Part shown: one piece after another, positions 2,255-59,444 of the stretch
Layout: every line of letters begins with the position of its first letter
Position numbering within the stretch: the stretch's first letter is position 1
Position numbers and translations under genes: made by a program
Notes under the pieces: generated by a model
Told to the model about the DNA's origin: nothing
The model's input: only the letters and a program-made list of their open reading frames with translations
Databases searched by the model: none
Origin: Escherichia phage P896
Length of the DNA: 64,000 bases
Sequence record: OL451225.1
Strand: one strand, 5' to 3'

Positions 2255-3195
2255 TGTTTACTTTACAAGAATTTCAAACACAAGCGATTAATATCGACTT
2301 GCAGAGGAATAACCTTTTTAGTGTGGTCTTCGCGACCGCACCTTCCTCTAAATCTCAGAATCTTCTGGACCAGTTTGGTGGCGCATTATTCAGCAACCTT
2401 CCTGTTAACTCAGATTGGTTCGGATTAACACAAGGTGACTTAACTCAAGGGATAACAACTCTTGTTACTGCCGGGACACAAAAGCTTATTCGTAAATCAG
2501 GGATAAGCAAATATCTTATCGGGGCAATGAGTAACCGTGTTGTGCAATCATTATTAGGTGAATTTGAGGTTGGTACTTACCTGCTTGATTTCTTTAATAT
2601 GGCTTATCCAACGGCTGGTCTATTAGTTCACTCTGTTAAGCTTCCGGATAACACATTGAACTACGAAATGGACCTTAACCATAATGCGCCAAATATCAAG
2701 ATAACAGGGAGAGAATATTCTCCGTTGGTATTGAGTTTTAGAATGGATTCAGAGGCGGGGAACTTCAGAGCATTTAACGATTGGGTTAACTCTGTACAGG
2801 ACCCAGTTACCCAGCTAAGGGCTTTGCCTGAAGACGTTGAAGCTGATATTCAGGTTAACCTTCATTCGCGTAATGGGTTACCGCATACGGTTGTTATGTT
2901 AACTGGTTGTGTTCCTGTGAGTGTATCAGCGCCTGAATTGAGCTATGAAGGGGATAATCAGATAGCTACATTTGATGTTACTTTTGCTTATCGTGTTATG
3001 TCAACTGGTGCGGTGGGAAGAACTGCAGCATTAGAATGGTTGGAAGATAAGGTTATTAAAGGTGTATCTGGTATTAGTTCAGATAACAACTTGAACTCAG
3101 AAGTTGCCAAATTGAGTCGCTTGTCTGGTGCTCAATCTGGATTAACAAGTCTATACAATACGTTCACTGGTTCTGGGAGTCAACGTATATTATAA
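2254..3195 (+). CDS. 54: Baseplate tail-tube initiator gp54
   Basis: 313 aa versus about 320 aa in T4; follows 48; ends at a strong terminator. Confidence 0.8.
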   Translation: MFTLQEFQTQAINIDLQRNNLFSVVFATAPSSKSQNLLDQFGGALFSNLPVNSDWFGLTQGDLTQGITTLVTAGTQKLIRKSGISKYLIGAMSNRVVQSLLGEFEVGTYLLDFFNMAYPTAGLLVHSVKLPDNTLNYEMDLNHNAPNIKITGREYSPLVLSFRMDSEAGNFRAFNDWVNSVQDPVTQLRALPEDVEADIQVNLHSRNGLPHTVVMLTGCVPVSVSAPELSYEGDNQIATFDVTFAYRVMSTGAVGRTAALEWLEDKVIKGVSGISSDNNLNSEVAKLSRLSGAQSGLTSLYNTFTGSGSQRIL

Positions 3196-16666: not shown

Positions 16667-16868
16667 AATGTTCTTCCAAGAAGGCTAAGAGTTCTGGAGC
16701 GGATTTAAAGATACCGCCATCAACCTTGTCTTCACTATCATAATCCATTACATCCAGGCCAATACGTCCATCAGTTAAAGGCCATACGCCGAAGAAAAAG
16801 CATTTACGTTTTTCAATTTCTTCGATTGTACGAAAAATCTTTTCGATATTATTCATAGGGGTTTCCAT
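16659..16868 (-). CDS. Hypothetical protein
   Basis: 69-aa ORF. Confidence 0.45.
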   Translation of the reverse strand: METPMNNIEKIFRTIEEIEKRKCFFFGVWPLTDGRIGLDVMDYDSEDKVDGGIFKSAPELLAFLEEHYV

Positions 16869-17572
16869 TTTCTACCTAGTTGCCAATCGGGGTGGCTCAA
16901 TCTAGGGTCATTTTCATCGGTGGTAGAAGATTTCTTGCCTGAAATATGGATAAGCCATTTTCTAGACTTAGCTACTCTTGAATAATTGGCTTTTGCCTCA
17001 TCTGAACGAATCTTACCTTTGTTCGATTCAGATATTTTATTGCCCCATTCAATAATAGCTTCTTCACTCATAAAATCTTTTACATTTTTACCGTACACTG
17101 GATTATTTTCGCCTTTAAATGAATTACCATTTTTAAGGCGGCTTTTTTTGGATTTAAGCCCACTACCAGGCAATCTCTTGCCTTTATTCCATGGTATAAC
17201 ACCGTTTTTGTATCTTTGCTTTTGTGATTCTGAAATTTTTAACGAAGTTTCGGGACTCGAGTTAACATTAATACGATTTTCATTAATGTACTCCCAACCT
17301 CCTTCTCCACCGGGCTTCAAATTGTAATTAGTATCCAATTTTATAAATTCTTTAGTTACTAATTCGGCTTCTAAATCATATGCTTCTTGTTTAGTTTCAA
17401 ATATTTTTATGATTTCTTTAATAAAAGAATCTTTACCATATTTTGATTCAGCATTTTTAAAAGCTGTACCGGAACCTAAATAAGAATCGTTTTCTTCCAA
17501 GGTCTTATGAACCCCTATATAAATTTTATTATTAACCAAACATGTAGTTTTATATACAGTATATTTTTCCAT
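16853..17572 (-). CDS. GIY-YIG homing endonuclease (Seg-like), free-standing
   Basis: N-terminal GIY-YIG module (YTVYK...NNKIYIGV); C-terminal basic repeats (IPWNKGK, NPVYGKN) typical of Seg-type DNA-binding regions; likely start is the second ATG (MEKYTVYK), preceded by GGAGGUGA. Confidence 0.75.
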   Translation of the reverse strand: MEKYTVYKTTCLVNNKIYIGVHKTLEENDSYLGSGTAFKNAESKYGKDSFIKEIIKIFETKQEAYDLEAELVTKEFIKLDTNYNLKPGGEGGWEYINENRINVNSSPETSLKISESQKQRYKNGVIPWNKGKRLPGSGLKSKKSRLKNGNSFKGENNPVYGKNVKDFMSEEAIIEWGNKISESNKGKIRSDEAKANYSRVAKSRKWLIHISGKKSSTTDENDPRLSHPDWQLGRKWKPL

Positions 17573-17581
17573 TAGAATCAC

Positions 17582-17611
17582 CTCCATAGATATTTATACT
17601 TATCTATGGAG
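17582..17611 (-). promoter_or_regulatory. Hairpin sequestering the endonuclease RBS, with an embedded late promoter (TATAAATA at 17591-17598)
   Basis: CTCCATAGATA-N8-TATCTATGGAG perfect inverted repeat; the 3' arm contains GGAG and the first AUG; TATAAATA lies across the loop and the start of the 3' arm. Confidence 0.55.
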
Positions 17612-17619
17612 ATTTCTAA

Positions 17620-18838
<1,219 letters not shown>

Positions 18839-18842
<4 letters not shown>

Positions 18843-19321
18843 ACACCAAGCTCCTTATAAAGTTCTTCGCGACAGGTTTTAAGGATTTTACCAGTTTCAT
18901 AAGCTGCACTTTCAGAAACATCACCAAGTGCAGCGGCAGATTGCATTTGTCCATGGCGTTTAGCTGCATATTCAAAACTTTTCACCAATTCACGAATACG
19001 TTCTTTTTCATTGTACTCTTCAATGAATTCAGGGTATTCCCAAACAGGTCGCATCATACGATACCAATGCTGAATAGTAATATAATTACTTCCATCCAGA
19101 TTAATAATTTGCGAAGGCTTAATAGACCCTGGGGCATAAAAAGTTACCTGTCTTACTACATCAATACCGTCCACCATAGCCCAAGCAAAATCGAAAGTTG
19201 CCTTCTTTTCAATTGGTGTGCTTGCACAGGACCCTAATTTTAAGAGCTTTTGTAATACAGGAGATTTAACACCTGAAATGTATTCAGGATTAGCTACAAA
19301 AGAATTGTCACGTAAAGTCAT
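18839..19321 (-). CDS. Hypothetical early protein (about 160 aa)
   Basis: ORF with GAGGAAA Shine-Dalgarno and its own early promoter; the track ORF 18839..19438 is an upstream over-extension. Confidence 0.5.
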
Positions 19322-19357
19322 AGTCATTTCCTCAAATATTTTATAATCCGTAGGAGC

Positions 19358-19390
19358 ATTATACTCTGCTCCCATGAGTTTGTACACTAC
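19358..19390 (-). promoter_or_regulatory. T4 early-type promoter with an inverted repeat around the -10
   Basis: Minus strand GTGTACAAA-N-GGAGCAGAGTATAATGCTCC; the palindrome GGAGCA/TGCTCC encloses TATAAT. Confidence 0.5.
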
Positions 19391-19490
19391 TTTCCAAAAA
19401 GACCCTGAACACATAAAGTGGCCGCAATTCCAAAACAAAAACAGAATGCACCAAATCTAACAATATCCCAACCAAGGCTACAGGTCTCAA

Positions 19491-19781
19491 TCATTTGCAA
19501 CGTTCCTCTTTTAGTTCAGAACGATAATAACATAACATACCTTTTTGGTCACGTACATATCTTTTTACATCATTCATCCAAATCCTGAATTCTTGCGATG
19601 CTTCAAAAGGCATACCAACCCAGGCTTGACCATCAATTACCTTCACTTCCCATTGCTGCTTATAATCAGCCAATGCAACAGGCCAATTAGGATGAACTTG
19701 GATTGTGGGCTCCACAACGGGCTTCTGGGCGCATGAAACGAGTCCAATAGCCAAACATACTGCCATGATAGATTTCATCAT
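19491..19781 (-). CDS. Outer-membrane lipoprotein spanin (o-spanin; pseT.2-like)
   Basis: 96 aa; signal peptide with lipobox LVSC; followed directly by the i-spanin candidate, as in T4 pseT.3/pseT.2. Confidence 0.55.
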   Translation of the reverse strand: MMKSIMAVCLAIGLVSCAQKPVVEPTIQVHPNWPVALADYKQQWEVKVIDGQAWVGMPFEASQEFRIWMNDVKRYVRDQKGMLCYYRSELKEERCK

Positions 19782-20131
19782 TTGGTGAGCTCCTGGAAGT
19801 CCTGGGCGAACTTATCAAAAGACTGATTAATCTGTTTTTCAACTAATTTAGGCTTCGCTGCCACAACCTTAGTACGTTTTGCATCTGCGCGAAGTTTATC
19901 ATTTTCCTTCTGCAGGTGTTCAACATATTCCTGGCGCTGTTGGTCAAGGAGATTAATTTGATTAACCTGGTCTTTTATTGATTGCAGATTTTTCGCATTA
20001 TCTTCTGCGACTTTGGTGACTTCCGCCACCGCTGTCTTGAGATTATCCACTTTTGCTTTTAGATAGAAACCACTACCAGCAGTTACTACCAGGGCGAGCA
20101 TAAGCCCTGTGGTGAGATTACTTATTTGCAT
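19778..20131 (-). CDS. Inner-membrane spanin (i-spanin; pseT.3-like)
   Basis: 117 aa; N-terminal transmembrane helix followed by a long charged coiled-coil region. Confidence 0.55.
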   Translation of the reverse strand: MQISNLTTGLMLALVVTAGSGFYLKAKVDNLKTAVAEVTKVAEDNAKNLQSIKDQVNQINLLDQQRQEYVEHLQKENDKLRADAKRTKVVAAKPKLVEKQINQSFDKFAQDFQELTK

Positions 20132-20625
20132 AACTTGATGATTACCTCAACAATATCATCCTGGGATAAACCATTCAGGAGGATGTGATTTGTACTGTCA
20201 GATGCTGAAATGCGGAACTGATTACCAACTTCATCCGCCATATCATCCTGGGTTAACACTGGGTGTTTAATTCCCAGGCGGTGTTGAAGTGTCAGGGGTT
20301 CAACCACAACATAACAAACACATCCATTGATATGCACATTAGGTTGGGTCTGATTGATGAACACTTCTGCATCATATTTAACCAAATGGTTCTTTAAGAA
20401 GTCAACCATTTCAGGAACAGATTCATGCAGTGCTTCTTTCCGCTCTTCTGATTTCTTATCACGATATTCTTTTTGTTTCGCCTTCAACTTATTATCAGAC
20501 GCCAGTTTCTTTCTTAAGTCAGTAAGGAACCCAACATTTTTGGAACCTTTATAAACATAGATTCCGTCATGGCGGTCACCATATACATCAACAATCATTT
20601 CATTTGAAATCAGTTGCATATTCAT
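20122..20625 (-). CDS. Hypothetical protein at the position of T4 alc (167 aa from the internal ATG)
   Basis: GAGGAAAA Shine-Dalgarno before MNMQLISNEM; 167 aa equals T4 Alc length and the position between rnlA and the spanins matches; identity not verified. Confidence 0.35.
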   Translation of the reverse strand: MNMQLISNEMIVDVYGDRHDGIYVYKGSKNVGFLTDLRKKLASDNKLKAKQKEYRDKKSEERKEALHESVPEMVDFLKNHLVKYDAEVFINQTQPNVHINGCVCYVVVEPLTLQHRLGIKHPVLTQDDMADEVGNQFRISASDSTNHILLNGLSQDDIVEVIIKLCK

Positions 20626-20638
20626 AATATTTTCCTCA

Positions 20639-20872
20639 TTAGTAGCGGTTGTAACCTCTAGGACCAAAAGAGTTGGCACCCAGGCGTTCATCTTTCTTTT
20701 TGGCTCTTGCTCTAAACCCAGAATCACCTGTTTGAGCTTTCAGTTCTTTTAACAATTTGGCCTTCAGGTCAGTAATGAAACCAATCCGGCGGTCTCCCTT
20801 GTAGACATAGATTCCGTCATTACTGTCACCATATGCCTGTGTAACTCTTTCATTTGTAATTAAGTTTAACAT
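20639..20872 (-). CDS. Hypothetical protein, paralog of the N-terminal region of the downstream ORF
   Basis: 77 aa; shares L(I/T).NE.V...YGD..DGIYVYKG....GF.TDL..KL with 20122..20625; own promoter and Shine-Dalgarno. Confidence 0.45.
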   Translation of the reverse strand: MLNLITNERVTQAYGDSNDGIYVYKGDRRIGFITDLKAKLLKELKAQTGDSGFRARAKKKDERLGANSFGPRGYNRY

Positions 20873-20903: not shown

Positions 20904-20935
20904 ATTATGTATAGAAAGAAGGGGCTTGTACACCC
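20904..20935 (-). promoter_or_regulatory. T4 early-type promoter
   Basis: Minus strand GTGTACAAG-N-CATAATGGTTCCATC; overlaps the AAGGGG/CCCCTT hairpin. Confidence 0.45.
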
Positions 20936-20942
20936 CTTTTTA

Positions 20943-22079
20943 TTATTCAGGAAGGATTACTTCCGCTTGGTAGTCCGACGGAATGTAAAGTTTATGATTT
21001 TTAAGGAAAACTTTATTGATTTGAGCAATCGTTTGTTCGGTTTCCTGGGGGCGTTGATAGGTGTTCATTAATACGGAGAACAATCCCGGGTACGGTTTAC
21101 ACAACTCTTGACCTTTAATCGCAAACTCGCGACGGTCTTTTCCTGCCAGTTGTTTCTGGGCGTCAAGCAACAATCCCAGCGTATTGGACAGATAATCCAG
21201 ATGTACAATGGTAAAGGCATTAACTTTTTCGCGAGCATAATCATCACCAGTAAACATGGCAATAACATCATCAGCCCCGCCGGCAACAACAACTTCAAAC
21301 AAACGCTCATTATTATTAATGGAGTCTTTAGTATGGTGCAGAGCACAATACCATTCTGTTTTCAGCTTGAACTTCTGACCACTTGCCAGCTCGTAGACGA
21401 AGCCTTCAATCTCTTTCATACCACGAACATTCTCAATGCTCACCAGGTCATATGCTTCAACCAGGAAAGGACGGAGTGCAGCATCTTTGAACAGTTCCTG
21501 GTATGGGATATATTCGCCAGTTTCATTATGACGAACGTTCAGTAAAATCAGGTCACGTTCCTGGTAAGGCAAAACAATGCGGTTGGTTGGTGCAACATAT
21601 TCCATATTGCATGCATAACCAGCTTCAGTGATTTCAGTCACACGAGCCCTGAACGCTTCACGGTGCGGTTGTTTAAACACCTGCAGAGATTCAGCAGCTT
21701 GGGAACTTTTAATCGACCCTTTGGATTTAAAAGCAATATTAGTCTGGTCCATATAAGTAGAAACCAAGCTACCATCAGCTTTTGCAGTAACCAGGACAAC
21801 TTCATCAAGGTTAAGGTCCATGGTCATTGGGTTCTCACCCAGATTAAAGAATTTTTCCATAGGACGGGCAGCAATGCGAACTGGACCATTGTCATCCATT
21901 TCAAACATAATGCCGCGGCACTCCAGTGCGTCATCAAGAAGCCAATCACTATAGGAAGCATAGTTATAGCTAAAGATGCGGAACTTAGTTTCAAATGGAG
22001 AAACAAAATCCGTATAGAAAAACTTACCTTTATCGGATTCGGCGCAAAGCTTCATTAAGTTATCATATAATTCAATCAT
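20943..22079 (-). CDS. rnlA: RNA ligase 1
   Basis: 378 aa (T4 Rnl1 is 374 aa); ligase motif I KADGSL; conserved N-terminal ...FRIFSYNYASYSDWLL.DALECRGIMFEMD... Confidence 0.85.
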   Translation of the reverse strand: MIELYDNLMKLCAESDKGKFFYTDFVSPFETKFRIFSYNYASYSDWLLDDALECRGIMFEMDDNGPVRIAARPMEKFFNLGENPMTMDLNLDEVVLVTAKADGSLVSTYMDQTNIAFKSKGSIKSSQAAESLQVFKQPHREAFRARVTEITEAGYACNMEYVAPTNRIVLPYQERDLILLNVRHNETGEYIPYQELFKDAALRPFLVEAYDLVSIENVRGMKEIEGFVYELASGQKFKLKTEWYCALHHTKDSINNNERLFEVVVAGGADDVIAMFTGDDYAREKVNAFTIVHLDYLSNTLGLLLDAQKQLAGKDRREFAIKGQELCKPYPGLFSVLMNTYQRPQETEQTIAQINKVFLKNHKLYIPSDYQAEVILPE

Positions 22080-47563: not shown

Positions 47564-48013
47564 TTAATAGCTCTGCAAAATGAATTTAAAGTTATCAGCA
47601 AGCATGCGATTCATTTCTGAAAGGGTCTGACAATCAGAACTATGTGAGCGAGTGAACGCCATCGCAATTTGACCTTTACCATAACCAGTTGTCAGAGATT
47701 TCATTTTAGAAACTGGGACAAACAGGACTTCATAGATAACACCATTGTTCGCCATTGTGCGAGACAGTTGAGAACGCTGTTTGCGGATGTGACTTAACAC
47801 AGTGTCAAACCCTTGTTGTGAACGTTGGTTACCAACATAAAAACGTGCCGCAACAATACGTGATTCACCTTCACCTTTAACCACGAAATAAAAACCTGGC
47901 TGGGCGATAGCTTCTTTAGTTGGACGCCCTGCAACATAATTACCATTATGGATGTAAGCAACAGTGGTAGCGCCGGCATTCAGTACGTCACGACGGGTCA
48001 TGTAAGTAGTCAT
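47564..48013 (-). CDS. ndd: Nucleoid disruption protein Ndd
   Basis: 149 aa (T4 Ndd is 151 aa); position after stp. Confidence 0.7.
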
Positions 48014-48057
48014 ATTAATTTCCTCAGTAAGTTAAAGTTTTGTGCTCCAGTGGGGTC

Positions 48058-48090
48058 ATTATACTCTGACCCCAAGAGTATGTACACTAT
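48058..48090 (-). promoter_or_regulatory. T4 early-type promoter with a palindrome around the -10
   Basis: Minus strand GTGTACATA-N-GGGGTCAGAGTATAATGACCCC (GGGGTCA/TGACCCC inverted repeat). Confidence 0.5.
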
Positions 48091-48431
48091 TTTTGAAGTT
48101 GTTCTAAAATAAATCCGCTGGTGTAAAGGCTTGCATTATACAGGCGGTCAAGAGACAACGAATCCAATCCATAAGCTTCGCGAATTGCATTGATAGCACT
48201 CTCATAACTTGTATAATAAACATCGCGATAATCGCGGTCCATAGTCATGCGGAACTTAATAAATTTGTAGAAACCAGTTTCAGGGTCCTGATAGAATGCA
48301 AATTCTGCAGACATCAAATTTTTAAGGTTAACAGCTTTTGTACCACCTGAATAACTTAAATCAAATGCTTCTGATATGCTAATCTGTTTAAAGAACATAA
48401 TGTTGCGATTACCAAAAAAGATTTTAGACAT
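48087..48431 (-). CDS. Hypothetical protein
   Basis: 114-aa ORF. Confidence 0.5.
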   Translation of the reverse strand: MSKIFFGNRNIMFFKQISISEAFDLSYSGGTKAVNLKNLMSAEFAFYQDPETGFYKFIKFRMTMDRDYRDVYYTSYESAINAIREAYGLDSLSLDRLYNASLYTSGFILEQLQK

Positions 48432-48470
48432 AATGATTTCCTCAGTTAAATTTTATTATCCACTGGGAAC

Positions 48471-48503
48471 ATTATACTCTGCTCCCAAGAGTTTGTACAC
48501 TAT
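48471..48503 (-). promoter_or_regulatory. T4 early-type promoter with a palindrome around the -10
   Basis: Minus strand GTGTACAAAC-N-GGGAGCAGAGTATAATGTTCCC. Confidence 0.5.
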
Positions 48504-48745
48504 TCTACATCAACTGCGTCATCCCACAAGTCAACTTCTTCTGATGATTCCATCAGTTCATCAACTGTGAAGCACTCAGTATTATTTTCAATTGCAAAAC
48601 GCTTCTGATAAAAAGGATAATCCAAACAGTTTTCAGTGCGCACGGGGCGTTCACTGTTATCCATTAAAGGCGAAATGCGAATCAGTTGTTGACCATTACC
48701 CAGGACAAATTTTTCACCAACTGCAATGTCTTTAAAAAGTTTCAT
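48500..48745 (-). CDS. Hypothetical protein
   Basis: 81-aa acidic ORF. Confidence 0.5.
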   Translation of the reverse strand: MKLFKDIAVGEKFVLGNGQQLIRISPLMDNSERPVRTENCLDYPFYQKRFAIENNTECFTVDELMESSEEVDLWDDAVDVE

Positions 48746-58120: not shown

Positions 58121-58612
58121 TTAGGCAAAATGAATATCAGCATACTCAACGATAAAGCTTTCAGGAACAACCTTAAAGGTTCCAAGGAACACAATATTAT
58201 ACAATTTAACCCCTTCTTCAACCCACTGGTCGGTGATGTAACCGGACATACTAGTGGTTTCATAAGTCGGACCATACATGCAATTGTATTCAAACGGTTT
58301 AGGTGAAACAAAAAAGACACCTTTGCCCAATTTCCATTTAAAATCAACCCCAACATGAGACTGGTCAATGGTTTCAACGTCTTCGGCCACAGGAGCGATG
58401 TACCCAGTAAATTCGGTTGATTCCAGGAATTTAGGATGCACATAAGCCAATTGAGTTTCAGTCTGACCATGTTTAGGAATAATACGCACTTTAACTTCTT
58501 TAATTCCGCCTACTAAATTAGTGCGAAGACTCACAACCTCAACAAAACGACCAGCCGCTTTAGAACGAGATTCTTTAGAAACACGTACAATATCACCAGC
58601 TTCAACTTTCAT
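58121..58612 (-). CDS. Hypothetical protein (MotB-sized, 163 aa), paralog of the next gene
   Basis: C-terminus YITDQWVEEGVKLYNIVFLGTFKVVPESFIVE is homologous to the C-terminus of 58689..59444; size and position resemble T4 motB. Confidence 0.45.
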   Translation of the reverse strand: MKVEAGDIVRVSKESRSKAAGRFVEVVSLRTNLVGGIKEVKVRIIPKHGQTETQLAYVHPKFLESTEFTGYIAPVAEDVETIDQSHVGVDFKWKLGKGVFFVSPKPFEYNCMYGPTYETTSMSGYITDQWVEEGVKLYNIVFLGTFKVVPESFIVEYADIHFA

Positions 58613-58654
58613 AATTTTCTCTCTTGGTTAATAAATTTATTCTCCAGTGGGGTC

Positions 58655-58686
58655 ATTATACTCTGACCCCAAGAGTTTGTACACAA
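58655..58686 (-). promoter_or_regulatory. T4 early-type promoter with a palindrome around the -10
   Basis: Minus strand GTGTACAAAC-N-GGGGTCAGAGTATAATGACCCCAC; near-identical to the promoter at 48058-48090. Confidence 0.5.
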
Positions 58687-58688
58687 AT

Positions 58689-59444
58689 TTAATTAAAAAT
58701 TTCAACAACCATGGAACGTGGTACAACAGTAAATTCACCAGCATGGACAACGTTCAGGAGTTCAACACCATCTTCAATCCACTGGTCTGTTACCCAACCA
58801 CAAATGGAACTATTAAATGGACGTTTGATTTGAACTGGTTTGCACAACAAGTCAATAGGGTCACCCAGTTCGCTAACTTCTTTCAGCAGTACAGATTCAC
58901 GCGGATAAAGGATAGCTTCAAGATTGTCACCTGATTCATTGACTGCAGTAAATTCAAAGATGCTTTGGTGATTGTGGTACTTAACTGTTTTAACGGTAAA
59001 TGGAGTAAATCCAAAAATACCTTTTAGTACACGCCAACCAGCATGCATTGCAACGGTCTTTCCAAACTGACTGGCATCTTCAATAAGCTGATAGGTTTTA
59101 CCAACTTTGATAGGAGTTTCTTCAACTTCTTTGAAGAGTTCAATCTCAGCTTCATAAACCATAATTTTTTCTACTTCATTTGTATCAAGGCGACGTGCAT
59201 GTAGAATATATGCTTTATCAAACCAGTTACTTTTTACAAAAGTTTCAACAATAAATTCACCTTCGCCTAAAGCATCAGTCAGAGTATTATACCCAGAAAC
59301 CATAGCTGCATTTTGAATAATAGGTTCAATCAGTTGATAAGTTTTGTTAATTTCAATAGTCATATTTTGTTTCTCAAGTTTTAATGGTTTAATTGGGCGA
59401 ACATACATACTTACAACATCAAAGTCAATAAATTCTGGTTTCAT
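58689..59444 (-). CDS. Hypothetical protein with internal duplication, paralog of 58121..58612
   Basis: 251 aa; two internal KTYQLIE-containing repeats; C-terminus WVTDQWIEDGVELLNVVHAGEFTVVPRSMVVE. Confidence 0.5.
   Translation of the reverse strand: MKPEFIDFDVVSMYVRPIKPLKLEKQNMTIEINKTYQLIEPIIQNAAMVSGYNTLTDALGEGEFIVETFVKSNWFDKAYILHARRLDTNEVEKIMVYEAEIELFKEVEETPIKVGKTYQLIEDASQFGKTVAMHAGWRVLKGIFGFTPFTVKTVKYHNHQSIFEFTAVNESGDNLEAILYPRESVLLKEVSELGDPIDLLCKPVQIKRPFNSSICGWVTDQWIEDGVELLNVVHAGEFTVVPRSMVVEIFN

What the first reader, a model, noticed from the sequence alone, without database searches (positions are those of the whole stretch)
18839..19490. Unassigned 160-aa early gene with its own promoter, preceded by about 90 bp of non-coding sequence
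This gene lies between the spanin pair and the pseT.1-like gene, where to my recollection T4 has only one small gene. It has a dedicated palindromic-type early promoter and a strong Shine-Dalgarno sequence. It is a candidate accessory or host-takeover gene.
Basis: inference. Interest (0 to 1): 0.35.

Follow-up and report, generated by a model that had tools for sequence, protein, structure and literature searches.

The report
Conserved orphan early gene, T4-like phage
This is a real 160-codon gene of unknown function with its own repeated early-promoter cassette; many T4 relatives carry it between the lysis (spanin) genes and the RNA-repair kinase gene, T4 itself lacks it, and it is already catalogued as a hypothetical protein, so it is ordinary.

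Summary
The 160-aa ORF is real: 18839-19321 on the minus strand, ATG at 19321, GAGG eight bases upstream. It matches the uncharacterised family phrog_4482 over its full length (E 8e-73). It occurs in 259 phage records, and in every locus I inspected it lies between the o-spanin gene pseT.2 and pseT. It evolves under purifying selection (dN/dS about 0.1). T4 has only pseT.1 at this position and has no homologue anywhere in its genome.

A sigma-70/T4-early-type promoter (TGTACA-N17-TATAAT, 19386-19358) is present. Its -10 box lies in the loop of an 8-bp stem. It belongs to a cassette of about 80 nt found four times in the window (none expected by chance), with compensatory stem changes. The cassette resembles the published PeSL elements.

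Two details of the finding are wrong. The gap to the o-spanin gene is 169 bp, and 108 bp of it is a conserved 35-codon membrane-peptide gene, so only 65 bp is non-coding. The downstream 106-aa gene is not a PseT.1 homologue.

AlphaFold gives a confident model (pLDDT 92): a basic alpha/beta N-domain plus an acidic helical hairpin. It has no match in PDB, Pfam, NCBIfam or PADLOC. The N-domain is swapped as an allele between otherwise near-identical phages. A Gre-factor-like hairpin tip did not survive a broader family profile. Function remains unknown; the most likely role is a non-enzymatic binding protein made early in infection.

The parts
18839..19321 (-). 160-aa protein-coding gene (phrog_4482 family; 97.5% identical to VR20 gp200). 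Soluble, 18.3 kDa. Residues 1-92 form a basic alpha/beta domain; residues 93-160 form an acidic helical hairpin.
   Evidence: ORF and sequence. phrog_4482 E 8e-73, full length. 259 phage records. VR20 annotation. dN/dS about 0.06-0.14 in both halves. AlphaFold2 pLDDT 92.3. pI and hydropathy.
19327..19333 (-). Shine-Dalgarno sequence GAGGAAA. The GAGG core ends 8 nt before the ATG at 19321. An in-frame ATG at 19327 is too close to it to be the likely start.
   Evidence: Sequence read directly. The same GAGGAAA-N-ATG arrangement is seen in relatives and in the other cassette copies.
19358..19386 (-). Sigma-70 / T4-early-type promoter: -35 TGTACA (19386-19381), 17-nt spacer, -10 TATAAT (19363-19358). 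The -35 reads TTTACA in Dhakavirus relatives.
   Evidence: T4-type early consensus TTTACW-N17-TAYWAT as given in PMC4122927. Activity not tested.
19351..19374 (-). 8-bp stem (UGGGAGCA / UGCUCCUA) whose 8-nt loop GAGUAUAA carries most of the -10 box.
   Evidence: Across the four cassette copies, 100% of cells are paired and 2 pairs change on both sides.
19316..19395 (-). One copy of a repeated regulatory cassette of about 80 nt (-35, conserved spacer, -10 within the stem, ACNGGA-A-rich tract, Shine-Dalgarno, ATG). The other copies have their -35 at 48086, 48499 and 58683 (minus strand), each in front of an orphan ORF.
19387..19494 (-). 35-codon ORF MIETCSLGWDIVRFGAFCFCFGIAATLCVQGLFGK, a single hydrophobic helix. 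Its ATG overlaps the o-spanin stop (ATGA) and its stop TAG abuts the -35 box. It fills most of the supposed non-coding gap.
   Evidence: 72 T4-like genomes, all full length, 60-100% identity; annotated in some; dN/dS 0.1-0.46; always 35 codons; Kyte-Doolittle 2.15.
19015..19321 (-). Exchangeable N-domain segment (codons 1 to about 102). It is only about 40-50% identical in DNA to the JS98-type allele, while the promoter upstream (95%) and the hairpin-coding part downstream (80-98%) are conserved.
   Evidence: EcWhh-1 and JS98 have identical 35-aa peptides but different N-domain alleles of the 160-aa gene.
18522..18842 (-). Downstream 106-aa gene (phrog_2364), coupled by ATGA to the 160-aa gene. 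It sits in the pseT.1 slot but is unrelated to PseT.1.
19491..19781 (-). Upstream neighbour: the o-spanin gene (pseT.2 homologue).
   Evidence: (phrog_812, E 4e-40).

Best explanation
The locus is a genuine, conserved, dispensable ('accessory') gene of the T4-like phages outside the T4 genus. It sits between the o-spanin gene and the pseT.1/pseT slot.

In this lineage (Gaprivervirus/Dhakavirus) it is expressed from its own host-sigma-70 (T4 early-type) promoter. That promoter is part of a repeated promoter + stem-loop + Shine-Dalgarno cassette of the PeSL kind.

The product is a soluble 18-kDa protein with no recognisable catalytic motif. It has a basic alpha/beta N-terminal domain joined to an acidic antiparallel helical hairpin.

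Inference: it most likely acts early in infection as a non-enzymatic binding protein (inhibitor or adaptor) for a host or phage macromolecule. On this view the conserved hairpin is a constant interaction or oligomerisation module and the N-domain is the specificity module. The N-domain exists in at least two strongly diverged alleles. These are exchanged by recombination between the conserved promoter cassette and the conserved hairpin-coding segment.

Shown: gene reality, family membership, synteny, absence from T4, the promoter motif and its repetition, stem covariation, the predicted fold and the mosaic structure.

Inferred: promoter activity and early timing, binding rather than catalysis, and a host-takeover or counter-defence role.
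For: - Coding and conserved: full-length phrog_4482 match; 259 phage records; 26 clusters at 50% identity among 1.84 billion proteins, with most strong matches 154-168 aa long; dN/dS about 0.1.
- Constant position between the o-spanin gene and pseT in Gaprivervirus, Dhakavirus, Jiaodavirus, Winklervirus, Kagamiyamavirus and two phages without a genus in their records.
- Absent from T4: synteny; whole-genome tblastn best E 2.4 and profile search best E 1.1.
- Promoter cassette. PeSL precedent with measured promoter and terminator activity: PMC2839356 and PMC4122927.
- Structure: pLDDT 92.3, helices 93-131 and 137-158. No structural match in PDB (best E 0.12). The only matches are uncharacterised proteins of T4-like phages.
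- No hit reaching a curated threshold in Pfam or NCBIfam and only a marginal one in PADLOC. No transmembrane segment; N-domain pI 9.2 and C-domain pI 5.0.
- The hairpin is a separable module. Stand-alone proteins of 59-89 aa exist, one of them encoded immediately downstream of the full-length gene in phage EcS1.
- Allele swap with sharp boundaries at the start codon and at about codon 102.
Against: - There is no expression data. Promoter use and early timing rest on consensus and analogy.
- The promoter is lineage-specific, so independent early expression is not a family-wide property.
- 'Binding protein' is argued from the absence of catalytic signatures and from modularity, which is weak evidence.
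- dN/dS gives no sign of positive selection within an allele type, so an arms-race reading is not directly supported.
- No partner is identified.
Confidence: 0.5

Rival explanations
1. The helical hairpin is a Gre-factor-like coiled coil whose acidic tip (G133-D134...E137...Y141) enters the secondary channel of host RNA polymerase. The protein would then be a phage-encoded transcription modulator, for example excluding DksA.
For: - The tip motif GDVSESAAY has the same spacing as GreA G40-D41...E44...Y48.
- GreA is the top sub-threshold hit in two libraries. In Pfam, GreA_GreB_N hits 5 of 24 members, best E 0.011. In NCBIfam the GreA hit has E 0.057.
- hhalign of the close-family profile against Gre N-terminal domains: probability 42%, P 2.6e-4.
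- There is precedent for phage-encoded secondary-channel binders (lambda Orf73, PMC9239242), and DksA lowers T4 transcription (PMC6024815).
- The gene lies near alc.
Against: - All scores are far below the curated cut-offs (16.4 bits or less against 24.5).
- With a broader family profile the hhalign probability falls to 2.9% and the alignment shifts.
- Distant family members carry NGFIS..PEPYL or PNPGP at the tip instead of the acidic motif.
- No Gre, DksA or Gfh1 structure appears among the top 50 Foldseek PDB hits.
- The comparison was chosen post hoc after scanning about 25,000 families.
Confidence: 0.04
2. The basic N-domain is an Sm-like RNA-binding fold. The protein would act on RNA (mRNA stability or tRNA), possibly together with the neighbouring RNA-repair enzymes PseT and RnlA.
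For: - About half of the top 50 Foldseek PDB hits are Sm/LSm proteins.
- The N-domain has pI 9.2.
- The secondary-structure order (helix, then bent strands) is Sm-like.
- The gene lies between rnlA and pseT.
Against: - The Foldseek E-values are 0.12 or higher, the target-normalised TM-scores for the Sm/LSm hits about 0.23-0.32 and rmsd mostly 7-9 A, so none is significant.
- Gene order in this region is inherited from the T4-like backbone and mixes unrelated functions (alc, spanins), so neighbourhood says little.
Confidence: 0.07
3. The gene belongs functionally to the lysis/envelope cluster. It would work with the i-spanin, the o-spanin and the 35-aa membrane peptide encoded just upstream.
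For: - It follows the spanin pair directly in every genome inspected.
- In four phages of other genera only a hairpin, and in KpV477 only a 22-bp spacer, with no promoter in either case, separates it from the spanin unit, which suggests co-transcription.
Against: - The protein has no signal peptide or transmembrane segment.
- It is translationally coupled to the downstream genes (ATGA to the 106-aa gene, then pseT), not to the upstream ones.
- T4 lyses normally without it (the normal lysis of T4 is established knowledge).
Confidence: 0.07
4. The TGTACA-N17-TATAAT/stem element is not mainly a promoter. It would be a recombination hotspot or an RNA-level signal (attenuator or processing/stability hairpin), and the gene would be expressed by read-through from upstream.
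For: - Stem pairing is maintained by compensatory changes, which a plain promoter does not need.
- Other genera have a UUCG hairpin at the same place without promoter hexamers.
- The mosaic boundary coincides with the cassette.
- PeSL stems terminate transcription and mediate recombination (PMC2839356).
Against: - The hexamers and the 17-nt spacing are perfectly kept in all four copies and in all Gaprivervirus/Dhakavirus relatives.
- The two roles are not exclusive.
- The stem is not followed by a T-run.
- The fold of the 91-nt region is not exceptional (z = -1.5).
Confidence: 0.15
5. The ORF is a chance or decaying reading frame rather than a functional gene.
For: Not annotated in JS98 or in CUA3 (a partial genome with runs of N across this gene). 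No known domain.
Against: - Full-length conservation in 256 of 259 matching records.
- dN/dS about 0.1 with many synonymous changes.
- A confident fold.
- The JS98 frame is intact.
Confidence: 0.01

Closest known systems
phrog_4482 / VR20 gp200 (YP_009207412.1), described as 'similar to VR7 gp239'
   Same: Full-length match (E 8e-73). 97.5% amino-acid identity to VR20 gp200. Same position and same upstream cassette.
   Different: Nothing of substance. This is the same gene in a closely related phage, and its function is unknown there too.
PeSL (promoter-early stem-loop) regulatory cassettes of T4-like phages (Arbiol et al. 2010, PMC2839356; Comeau et al. 2014, PMC4122927)
   Same: A repeated composite of a sigma-70-like early promoter, a G/C-armed stem-loop and a Shine-Dalgarno/start codon. 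It lies in front of orphan ORFs and coincides with a recombination boundary.
   Different: In the PeSLs described for phage PST the stem-loop lies just upstream of the promoter. Here the stem brackets the -10 box. Promoter and terminator activity and mini-circle formation were not tested here.
T4 PseT.1 (NP_049835.1; Pfam PF26888 in precomputed annotations)
   Same: It occupies the neighbouring slot between pseT.2 and pseT. It is small, of unknown function, and probably helical.
   Different: No sequence similarity (BLASTP none; hhalign probability 0.07%). True PseT.1 homologues coexist with the 160-aa gene in CHI14, KpV477 and HMGUkp2.
GreA/GreB N-terminal coiled coil (PF03449)
   Same: An antiparallel helical hairpin with a G-D-x-x-E-x-A-x-Y tip in the close subfamily.
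   Different: Sub-threshold scores. The motif is not family-wide and the similarity is lost with a broader profile. The domain order is reversed: here the globular domain is N-terminal.

Membership tests
phrog_4482 (uncharacterised family of T4-like phage proteins) | Significant full-length match to the family profile | tested here: met
   E 8e-73; residues 1-160 against profile positions 1-162 of 162.
phrog_4482 (uncharacterised family of T4-like phage proteins) | Conserved genomic position between the o-spanin gene and pseT | tested here: met
T4 PseT.1 family (PF26888) | Sequence or profile similarity to PseT.1 | tested here: not met
   BLASTP found no alignment for either the 160-aa or the 106-aa product. 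hhalign of A1 against A2: probability 0.07%, E 0.67.
PeSL regulatory cassette | Sigma-70-like -35 and -10 hexamers about 17 nt apart | tested here: met
   TGTACA-17-TATAAT, 10 of 12 matches.
PeSL regulatory cassette | Adjacent stable stem-loop with G-rich and C-rich arms | tested here: inconclusive
   An 8-bp stem with GGG/CCC arms is present and covaries. However, it encloses the -10 box instead of lying upstream of the promoter as described for PST PeSLs.
PeSL regulatory cassette | Repeated in the genome, preferentially before orphan ORFs and at indel or replacement boundaries | tested here: met
   Four copies against 0 expected, each before an orphan ORF. The mosaic boundary lies at the cassette.
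PeSL regulatory cassette | Measured promoter and terminator activity | not testable with these tools
   Needs reporter assays or transcript mapping.
GreA/GreB N-terminal domain (PF03449) | Profile score above the gathering threshold | tested here: not met
   Best score 16.4 bits against a cut-off of 24.5; 5 of 24 members hit at E below 10. hhalign 42%, falling to 2.9% with the broader profile.
GreA/GreB N-terminal domain (PF03449) | Conserved acidic residues at the coiled-coil tip | tested here: not met
   D134 is replaced by N or F within the close family. The motif is absent from distant members.
Sm/LSm fold | Significant structural superposition | tested here: not met
   Foldseek E 0.12 or higher; target-normalised TM-score for the Sm/LSm hits about 0.23-0.32.
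YxiJ-like (PF14176) | Profile score above the gathering threshold | tested here: not met
   Best score 18.9 bits against a cut-off of 27; 11 of 24 members sub-threshold.
Known anti-phage defence components (PADLOC) | Any significant profile match | tested here: not met
   Only SduA at E 0.032, 11.6 bits.

The most novel reading that the evidence does not exclude
The conserved hairpin with its G-D-x-x-E-x-A-x-Y tip is a functional analogue of the Gre/DksA coiled coils. The protein would then be a T4-like-phage-encoded factor for the RNA polymerase secondary channel, with the exchangeable N-domain docking on the polymerase rim.
Probability: 0.04. Interest if true: 0.6.

Novelty: already known. 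Interest (0 to 1): 0.22.

Why it matters
As a gene it adds little. It is a catalogued hypothetical protein of T4-like phages.

Three points have modest value:
- The annotation can be corrected. The start codon should be the ATG at 19321 rather than the ATG inside the -10 box. The 'intergenic' gap holds a conserved 35-codon membrane-peptide gene. The downstream gene is not pseT.1.
- The locus is a clean example of PeSL-type modular exchange. A promoter cassette and a conserved 3' gene segment flank a swapped N-domain allele.
- The confident, unmatched fold and the T4-negative distribution make the gene a reasonable candidate for screens of accessory or counter-defence functions in Dhakavirus/Gaprivervirus phages used for therapy.

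Tried and rejected
- Homology of the C-terminal hairpin to T4 PseT.1. This was suggested by weak BLASTP hits between KpV477 proteins. hhalign rejected it (probability 0.07%).
- Gre-factor homology. This was raised by sub-threshold Pfam and NCBIfam hits and by hhalign at 42%. It is not supported with the broader family profile (2.9%) or by tip conservation.
- YxiJ-like similarity. It is sub-threshold and the literature search gave nothing usable.
- Matches of the family profile to two Ig-repeat proteins of more than 1,200 aa (P0052 and P0054). These are summed weak hits to Big_7/PKD repeats and are judged spurious.
- PDB sequence search, PDB Foldseek, NCBIfam and PADLOC, and Rfam on 18400-19900: nothing significant.
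- Literature search for pseT.1, pseT.2 and pseT.3: only spanin papers, nothing on this gene.
- The RNA fold of the leader region is not exceptional (z = -1.5).

Full report
**Setting**

The window comes from a T4-like phage closest to the Gaprivervirus phages VR20 and VR26 (about 96% DNA identity over 17500-20800). All genes in this stretch are on the minus strand. In order they are:
- rnlA, 20943-22079
- a 77-aa partial alc duplicate, 20639-20872
- alc, 20122-20625
- i-spanin pseT.3, 19778-20131
- o-spanin pseT.2, 19491-19781
- a 169-bp gap
- the 160-aa ORF, 18839-19321
- a 106-aa ORF, 18522-18842
- pseT, 17620-18525

**The observation**

The ORF is real and its limits are 18839-19321.
- The ATG at 19321 is preceded by GAGG at 19333-19330, a spacing of 8 nt.
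- An in-frame ATG at 19327 lies only 2 nt from GAGG and is unlikely to be the start.
- The family profile phrog_4482 matches from residue 1 to residue 160 (E 8e-73).
- Apart from the over-extended gene calls, the 23 aligned homologues begin at or within two residues of the same position.
- The 172-aa and 178-aa versions in databases start further upstream. The 172-aa form starts at the ATG inside the -10 hexamer (TATAATG). In this window that frame is closed by a stop.

The promoter is present.
- TGTACA-17 nt-TATAAT at 19386-19358 is the best sigma-70-type site in a 5-kb scan. Such sites overall are no commoner there than in shuffled sequence (15 against 13.5).
- The specific pattern TGTACA-N16-18-TATAAT occurs 6 times in the window against 0.06 expected.
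- The extended 34-nt motif occurs 4 times against 0 expected.
- The arms GGAGCA/TGCTCC bracket the -10 box. As RNA they extend to an 8-bp stem with an 8-nt loop.

The four copies align over about 80 nt, from the -35 box to the start codon.
- In that alignment every stem cell is paired.
- Two base pairs change on both sides (A-U to G-C, and G-C to U-A).
- Sliding the 3' arm by 1-3 columns drops pairing to 38-55%.
- With only four copies this is supportive, not conclusive.

In the relatives inspected:
- The Gaprivervirus/Dhakavirus relatives all keep the cassette. The Gaprivervirus relatives VR20 and MN01 read TGTACA at -35; the Dhakavirus relatives WG01, EcWhh-1, dhabil and JS98, and also CUA3, read TTTACA.
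- EcS1, MY742, CHI14 and HMGUkp2 instead have a UUCG-tetraloop hairpin at the same place. It is followed by the same (A/T)CGGAT...TTTGAGGAA leader, with no -35 or -10 elements.
- KpV477 has only a 22-bp spacer.

The element fits the published PeSL cassettes: an early promoter plus a stem-loop plus a Shine-Dalgarno sequence, repeated before orphan ORFs, and mediating modular exchange (PMC2839356; PMC4122927). The difference is that here the stem encloses the -10 box, whereas the PeSLs described for phage PST have the stem just upstream of the promoter.

The 169 bp between the o-spanin stop and the ATG are not all non-coding.
- A 35-codon ORF lies at 19387-19494. Its product is MIETCSLGWDIVRFGAFCFCFGIAATLCVQGLFGK.
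- It starts with an ATG that overlaps the o-spanin stop (ATGA). It ends with a TAG that abuts the -35 box.
- It is intact at full length in 72 T4-like genomes, at 60-100% amino-acid identity. Two further full-length matches, at E about 9 in unrelated 77-kb phages, are probably chance.
- It is annotated in WG01, EcWhh-1 and dhabil.
- It is always 35 codons long, with dN/dS of 0.1-0.46 across diverged pairs.
- It is strongly hydrophobic.
- Analogous 32-33-codon hydrophobic ORFs follow the o-spanin gene in MY742 and CHI14.

Only 65 bp (19322-19386) are non-coding, and the promoter, stem and Shine-Dalgarno sequence fill them.

**Comparison with T4**

- T4 has pseT, pseT.1 (75 aa), pseT.2, pseT.3 and alc, with overlapping ends and no room for another gene.
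- Neither the 160-aa nor the 106-aa product resembles PseT.1.
- The reassembled T4 genome (168,903 bp) has no homologue of the 160-aa, 106-aa or 35-aa products. The best tblastn E-values are 2.4, 7.3 and 1.4, and the family profile gives a best E of 1.1.
- True PseT.1 homologues lie directly downstream of the 160-aa gene in CHI14 (51% identity to T4), KpV477 and HMGUkp2.

So the 160-aa gene is an extra gene between pseT.2 and pseT.1. In this window the pseT.1 slot holds an unrelated gene (phrog_2364).

**Distribution and selection**

- tblastn finds the gene in 259 phage records, 256 of them at 80% coverage or more. The records are named for Klebsiella, Escherichia, Enterobacter, Serratia, Salmonella, Citrobacter, Yersinia, Erwinia, Edwardsiella and other hosts.
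- An exhaustive profile search of 1.84 billion representative proteins finds only 26 clusters. Most strong matches are 154-168 aa long, and a few are short forms that contain only the hairpin.
- Two long Ig-repeat proteins among the weakest hits are spurious.
- Within the window-type allele, dN/dS is 0.06-0.14 in both halves. This is ordinary purifying selection.

**Structure**

AlphaFold2 on the 24-sequence alignment gives pLDDT 92.3 and pTM 0.74.
- Residues 1-92 form a small alpha/beta domain (pI 9.2).
- Residues 93-131 and 137-158 form a long antiparallel helical hairpin (pI 5.0).
- No transmembrane segment is predicted.
- Foldseek against PDB gives nothing significant. The best E is 0.12, and many of the marginal hits are Sm/LSm proteins with target-normalised TM-scores of about 0.23-0.32.
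- Foldseek against viral models returns only uncharacterised proteins of T4-like phages. These include longer relatives (Proteus phage Pm5461, 234 aa; Erwinia phage Cronus, 243 aa). They also include stand-alone hairpins of 59-89 aa.
- In EcS1 one such 59-aa hairpin gene lies immediately downstream of the full-length gene.
- Nothing reaches a curated threshold or a convincing score in Pfam, NCBIfam, PADLOC or the PDB sequence search.

**Mosaic structure**

Against JS98, DNA identity changes sharply along the locus:
- 95% across the promoter (19401-19342)
- about 40-50% across codons 1 to about 102 (19320 to about 19015)
- 80-98% from about 19012 through the hairpin-coding part, the 106-aa gene and pseT

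The two N-domain types are still homologous, sharing GSC..TP.E.KA.F...YAP. The alleles do not follow taxonomy:
- The Dhakavirus phages WG01 and EcWhh-1 carry the window type.
- The Dhakavirus phages JS98 and dhabil carry the other type.
- EcWhh-1 and JS98 nevertheless have identical 35-aa peptides.

This is cassette replacement between the conserved promoter element and the conserved 3' segment, as the PeSL model predicts.

**Function: leads tested**

(a) PseT.1-like hairpin: rejected.

(b) Gre-like hairpin.
- The tip LGDVSESAAY matches the spacing of GreA HGDLKENAEY.
- GreA is the top sub-threshold hit in Pfam and NCBIfam.
- hhalign gives 42% probability.
- However, a broader family alignment shows that the tip motif is confined to the close subfamily; the other members have NGFIS..PEPYL.
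- With that broader alignment the probability falls to 2.9%.
- I keep this only as a low-probability analogy.

(c) Sm-like and YxiJ-like N-domain: not significant.

**Most likely mechanism**

The gene is expressed from a host-polymerase promoter at the start of infection (inferred). The protein is cytoplasmic and shows no catalytic signature. It most likely acts by binding. The conserved hairpin would be the constant interaction or oligomerisation module, and the exchangeable N-domain the variable one. It is dispensable for the T4 life plan, which fits an accessory host-interaction or counter-defence role (inferred).

My estimates:
- real gene: about 0.97
- functional own promoter: about 0.75
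- accessory: about 0.8
- non-enzymatic binder: about 0.5
- host-takeover or counter-defence role: about 0.35

**Verdict**

The finding is a correct description of a known hypothetical gene, with two inaccuracies. It is not surprising to a specialist. Its value lies in annotation fixes and in being a tidy example of PeSL-type modular exchange.

Noticed in passing
window 19387-19494 (-): A conserved 35-codon ORF for a single-helix hydrophobic peptide (motif GWD..FG..CFCFGI....C..G.FGK). It is coupled by ATGA to the o-spanin stop and is unannotated in VR20, JS98 and MN01. It is intact in 72 related T4-like genomes and dN/dS is 0.1-0.46. Analogous small hydrophobic ORFs follow the o-spanin gene in MY742 and CHI14. 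It may be an accessory to the lysis or envelope genes.
   Followed up: partly
window 18522-18842 (-): The 106-aa gene in the pseT.1 slot (phrog_2364) is unrelated to T4 PseT.1 and absent from T4. True PseT.1 homologues occupy this slot in CHI14, KpV477 and HMGUkp2.
   Followed up: partly
window 48008-48095, 48426-48508, 58607-58692 (-): Three more copies of the same cassette of about 80 nt (promoter, stem, Shine-Dalgarno). They lie in front of orphan ORFs of 149, 114 and 163 aa.
   Followed up: partly
window 20904-20938 (-): A different arrangement upstream of the 77-aa alc-like ORF. The hairpin AAGGGG-TGTACA-AGCCCCTT (20938-20919) carries a -35-like TGTACA in its loop. A CATAAT follows 17 nt later. 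The site doubles as a terminator-like site after rnlA.
   Followed up: no
window 20639-20872 (-): A 77-aa ORF that is a partial duplicate of the N-terminal part of Alc (PF17527, E 7e-11). It lies just upstream of the full-length alc (20122-20625) and is also annotated in VR20.
   Followed up: partly
window 16853-17587 (-): A 244-aa GIY-YIG + NUMOD3 (Seg-like) homing-endonuclease ORF immediately downstream of pseT. VR20 has cd.4 directly after pseT, and DNA similarity to relatives stops near 17620-17640. This looks like a mobile insertion.
   Followed up: partly
L009 (EcS1) 2983-3162; proteins P0038, P0047, P0049: Stand-alone copies (59-87 aa) of the C-terminal helical hairpin exist as separate proteins in some T4-like phages. 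In EcS1 one such gene lies directly after the full-length gene, suggesting tandem duplication of the module.
   Followed up: partly
L006, L007, L008, L009 upstream of the homologous gene: In MY742, CHI14, HMGUkp2 and EcS1 the promoter/stem is replaced by a GC-rich hairpin with a UUCG tetraloop (for example GAGCC-TTCG-GGCTC). The same (A/T)CGGAT...TTTGAGGAA leader follows it. The stem is therefore older than the promoter in this position, or the reverse.
   Followed up: no
database proteins P0001-P0005, P0024, P0028: Gene callers extend this gene to 165-178 aa. The 165-aa and 172-aa forms start at the ATG inside the -10 box (TATAATG). This is a systematic over-extension if the promoter is used.
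   Followed up: yes
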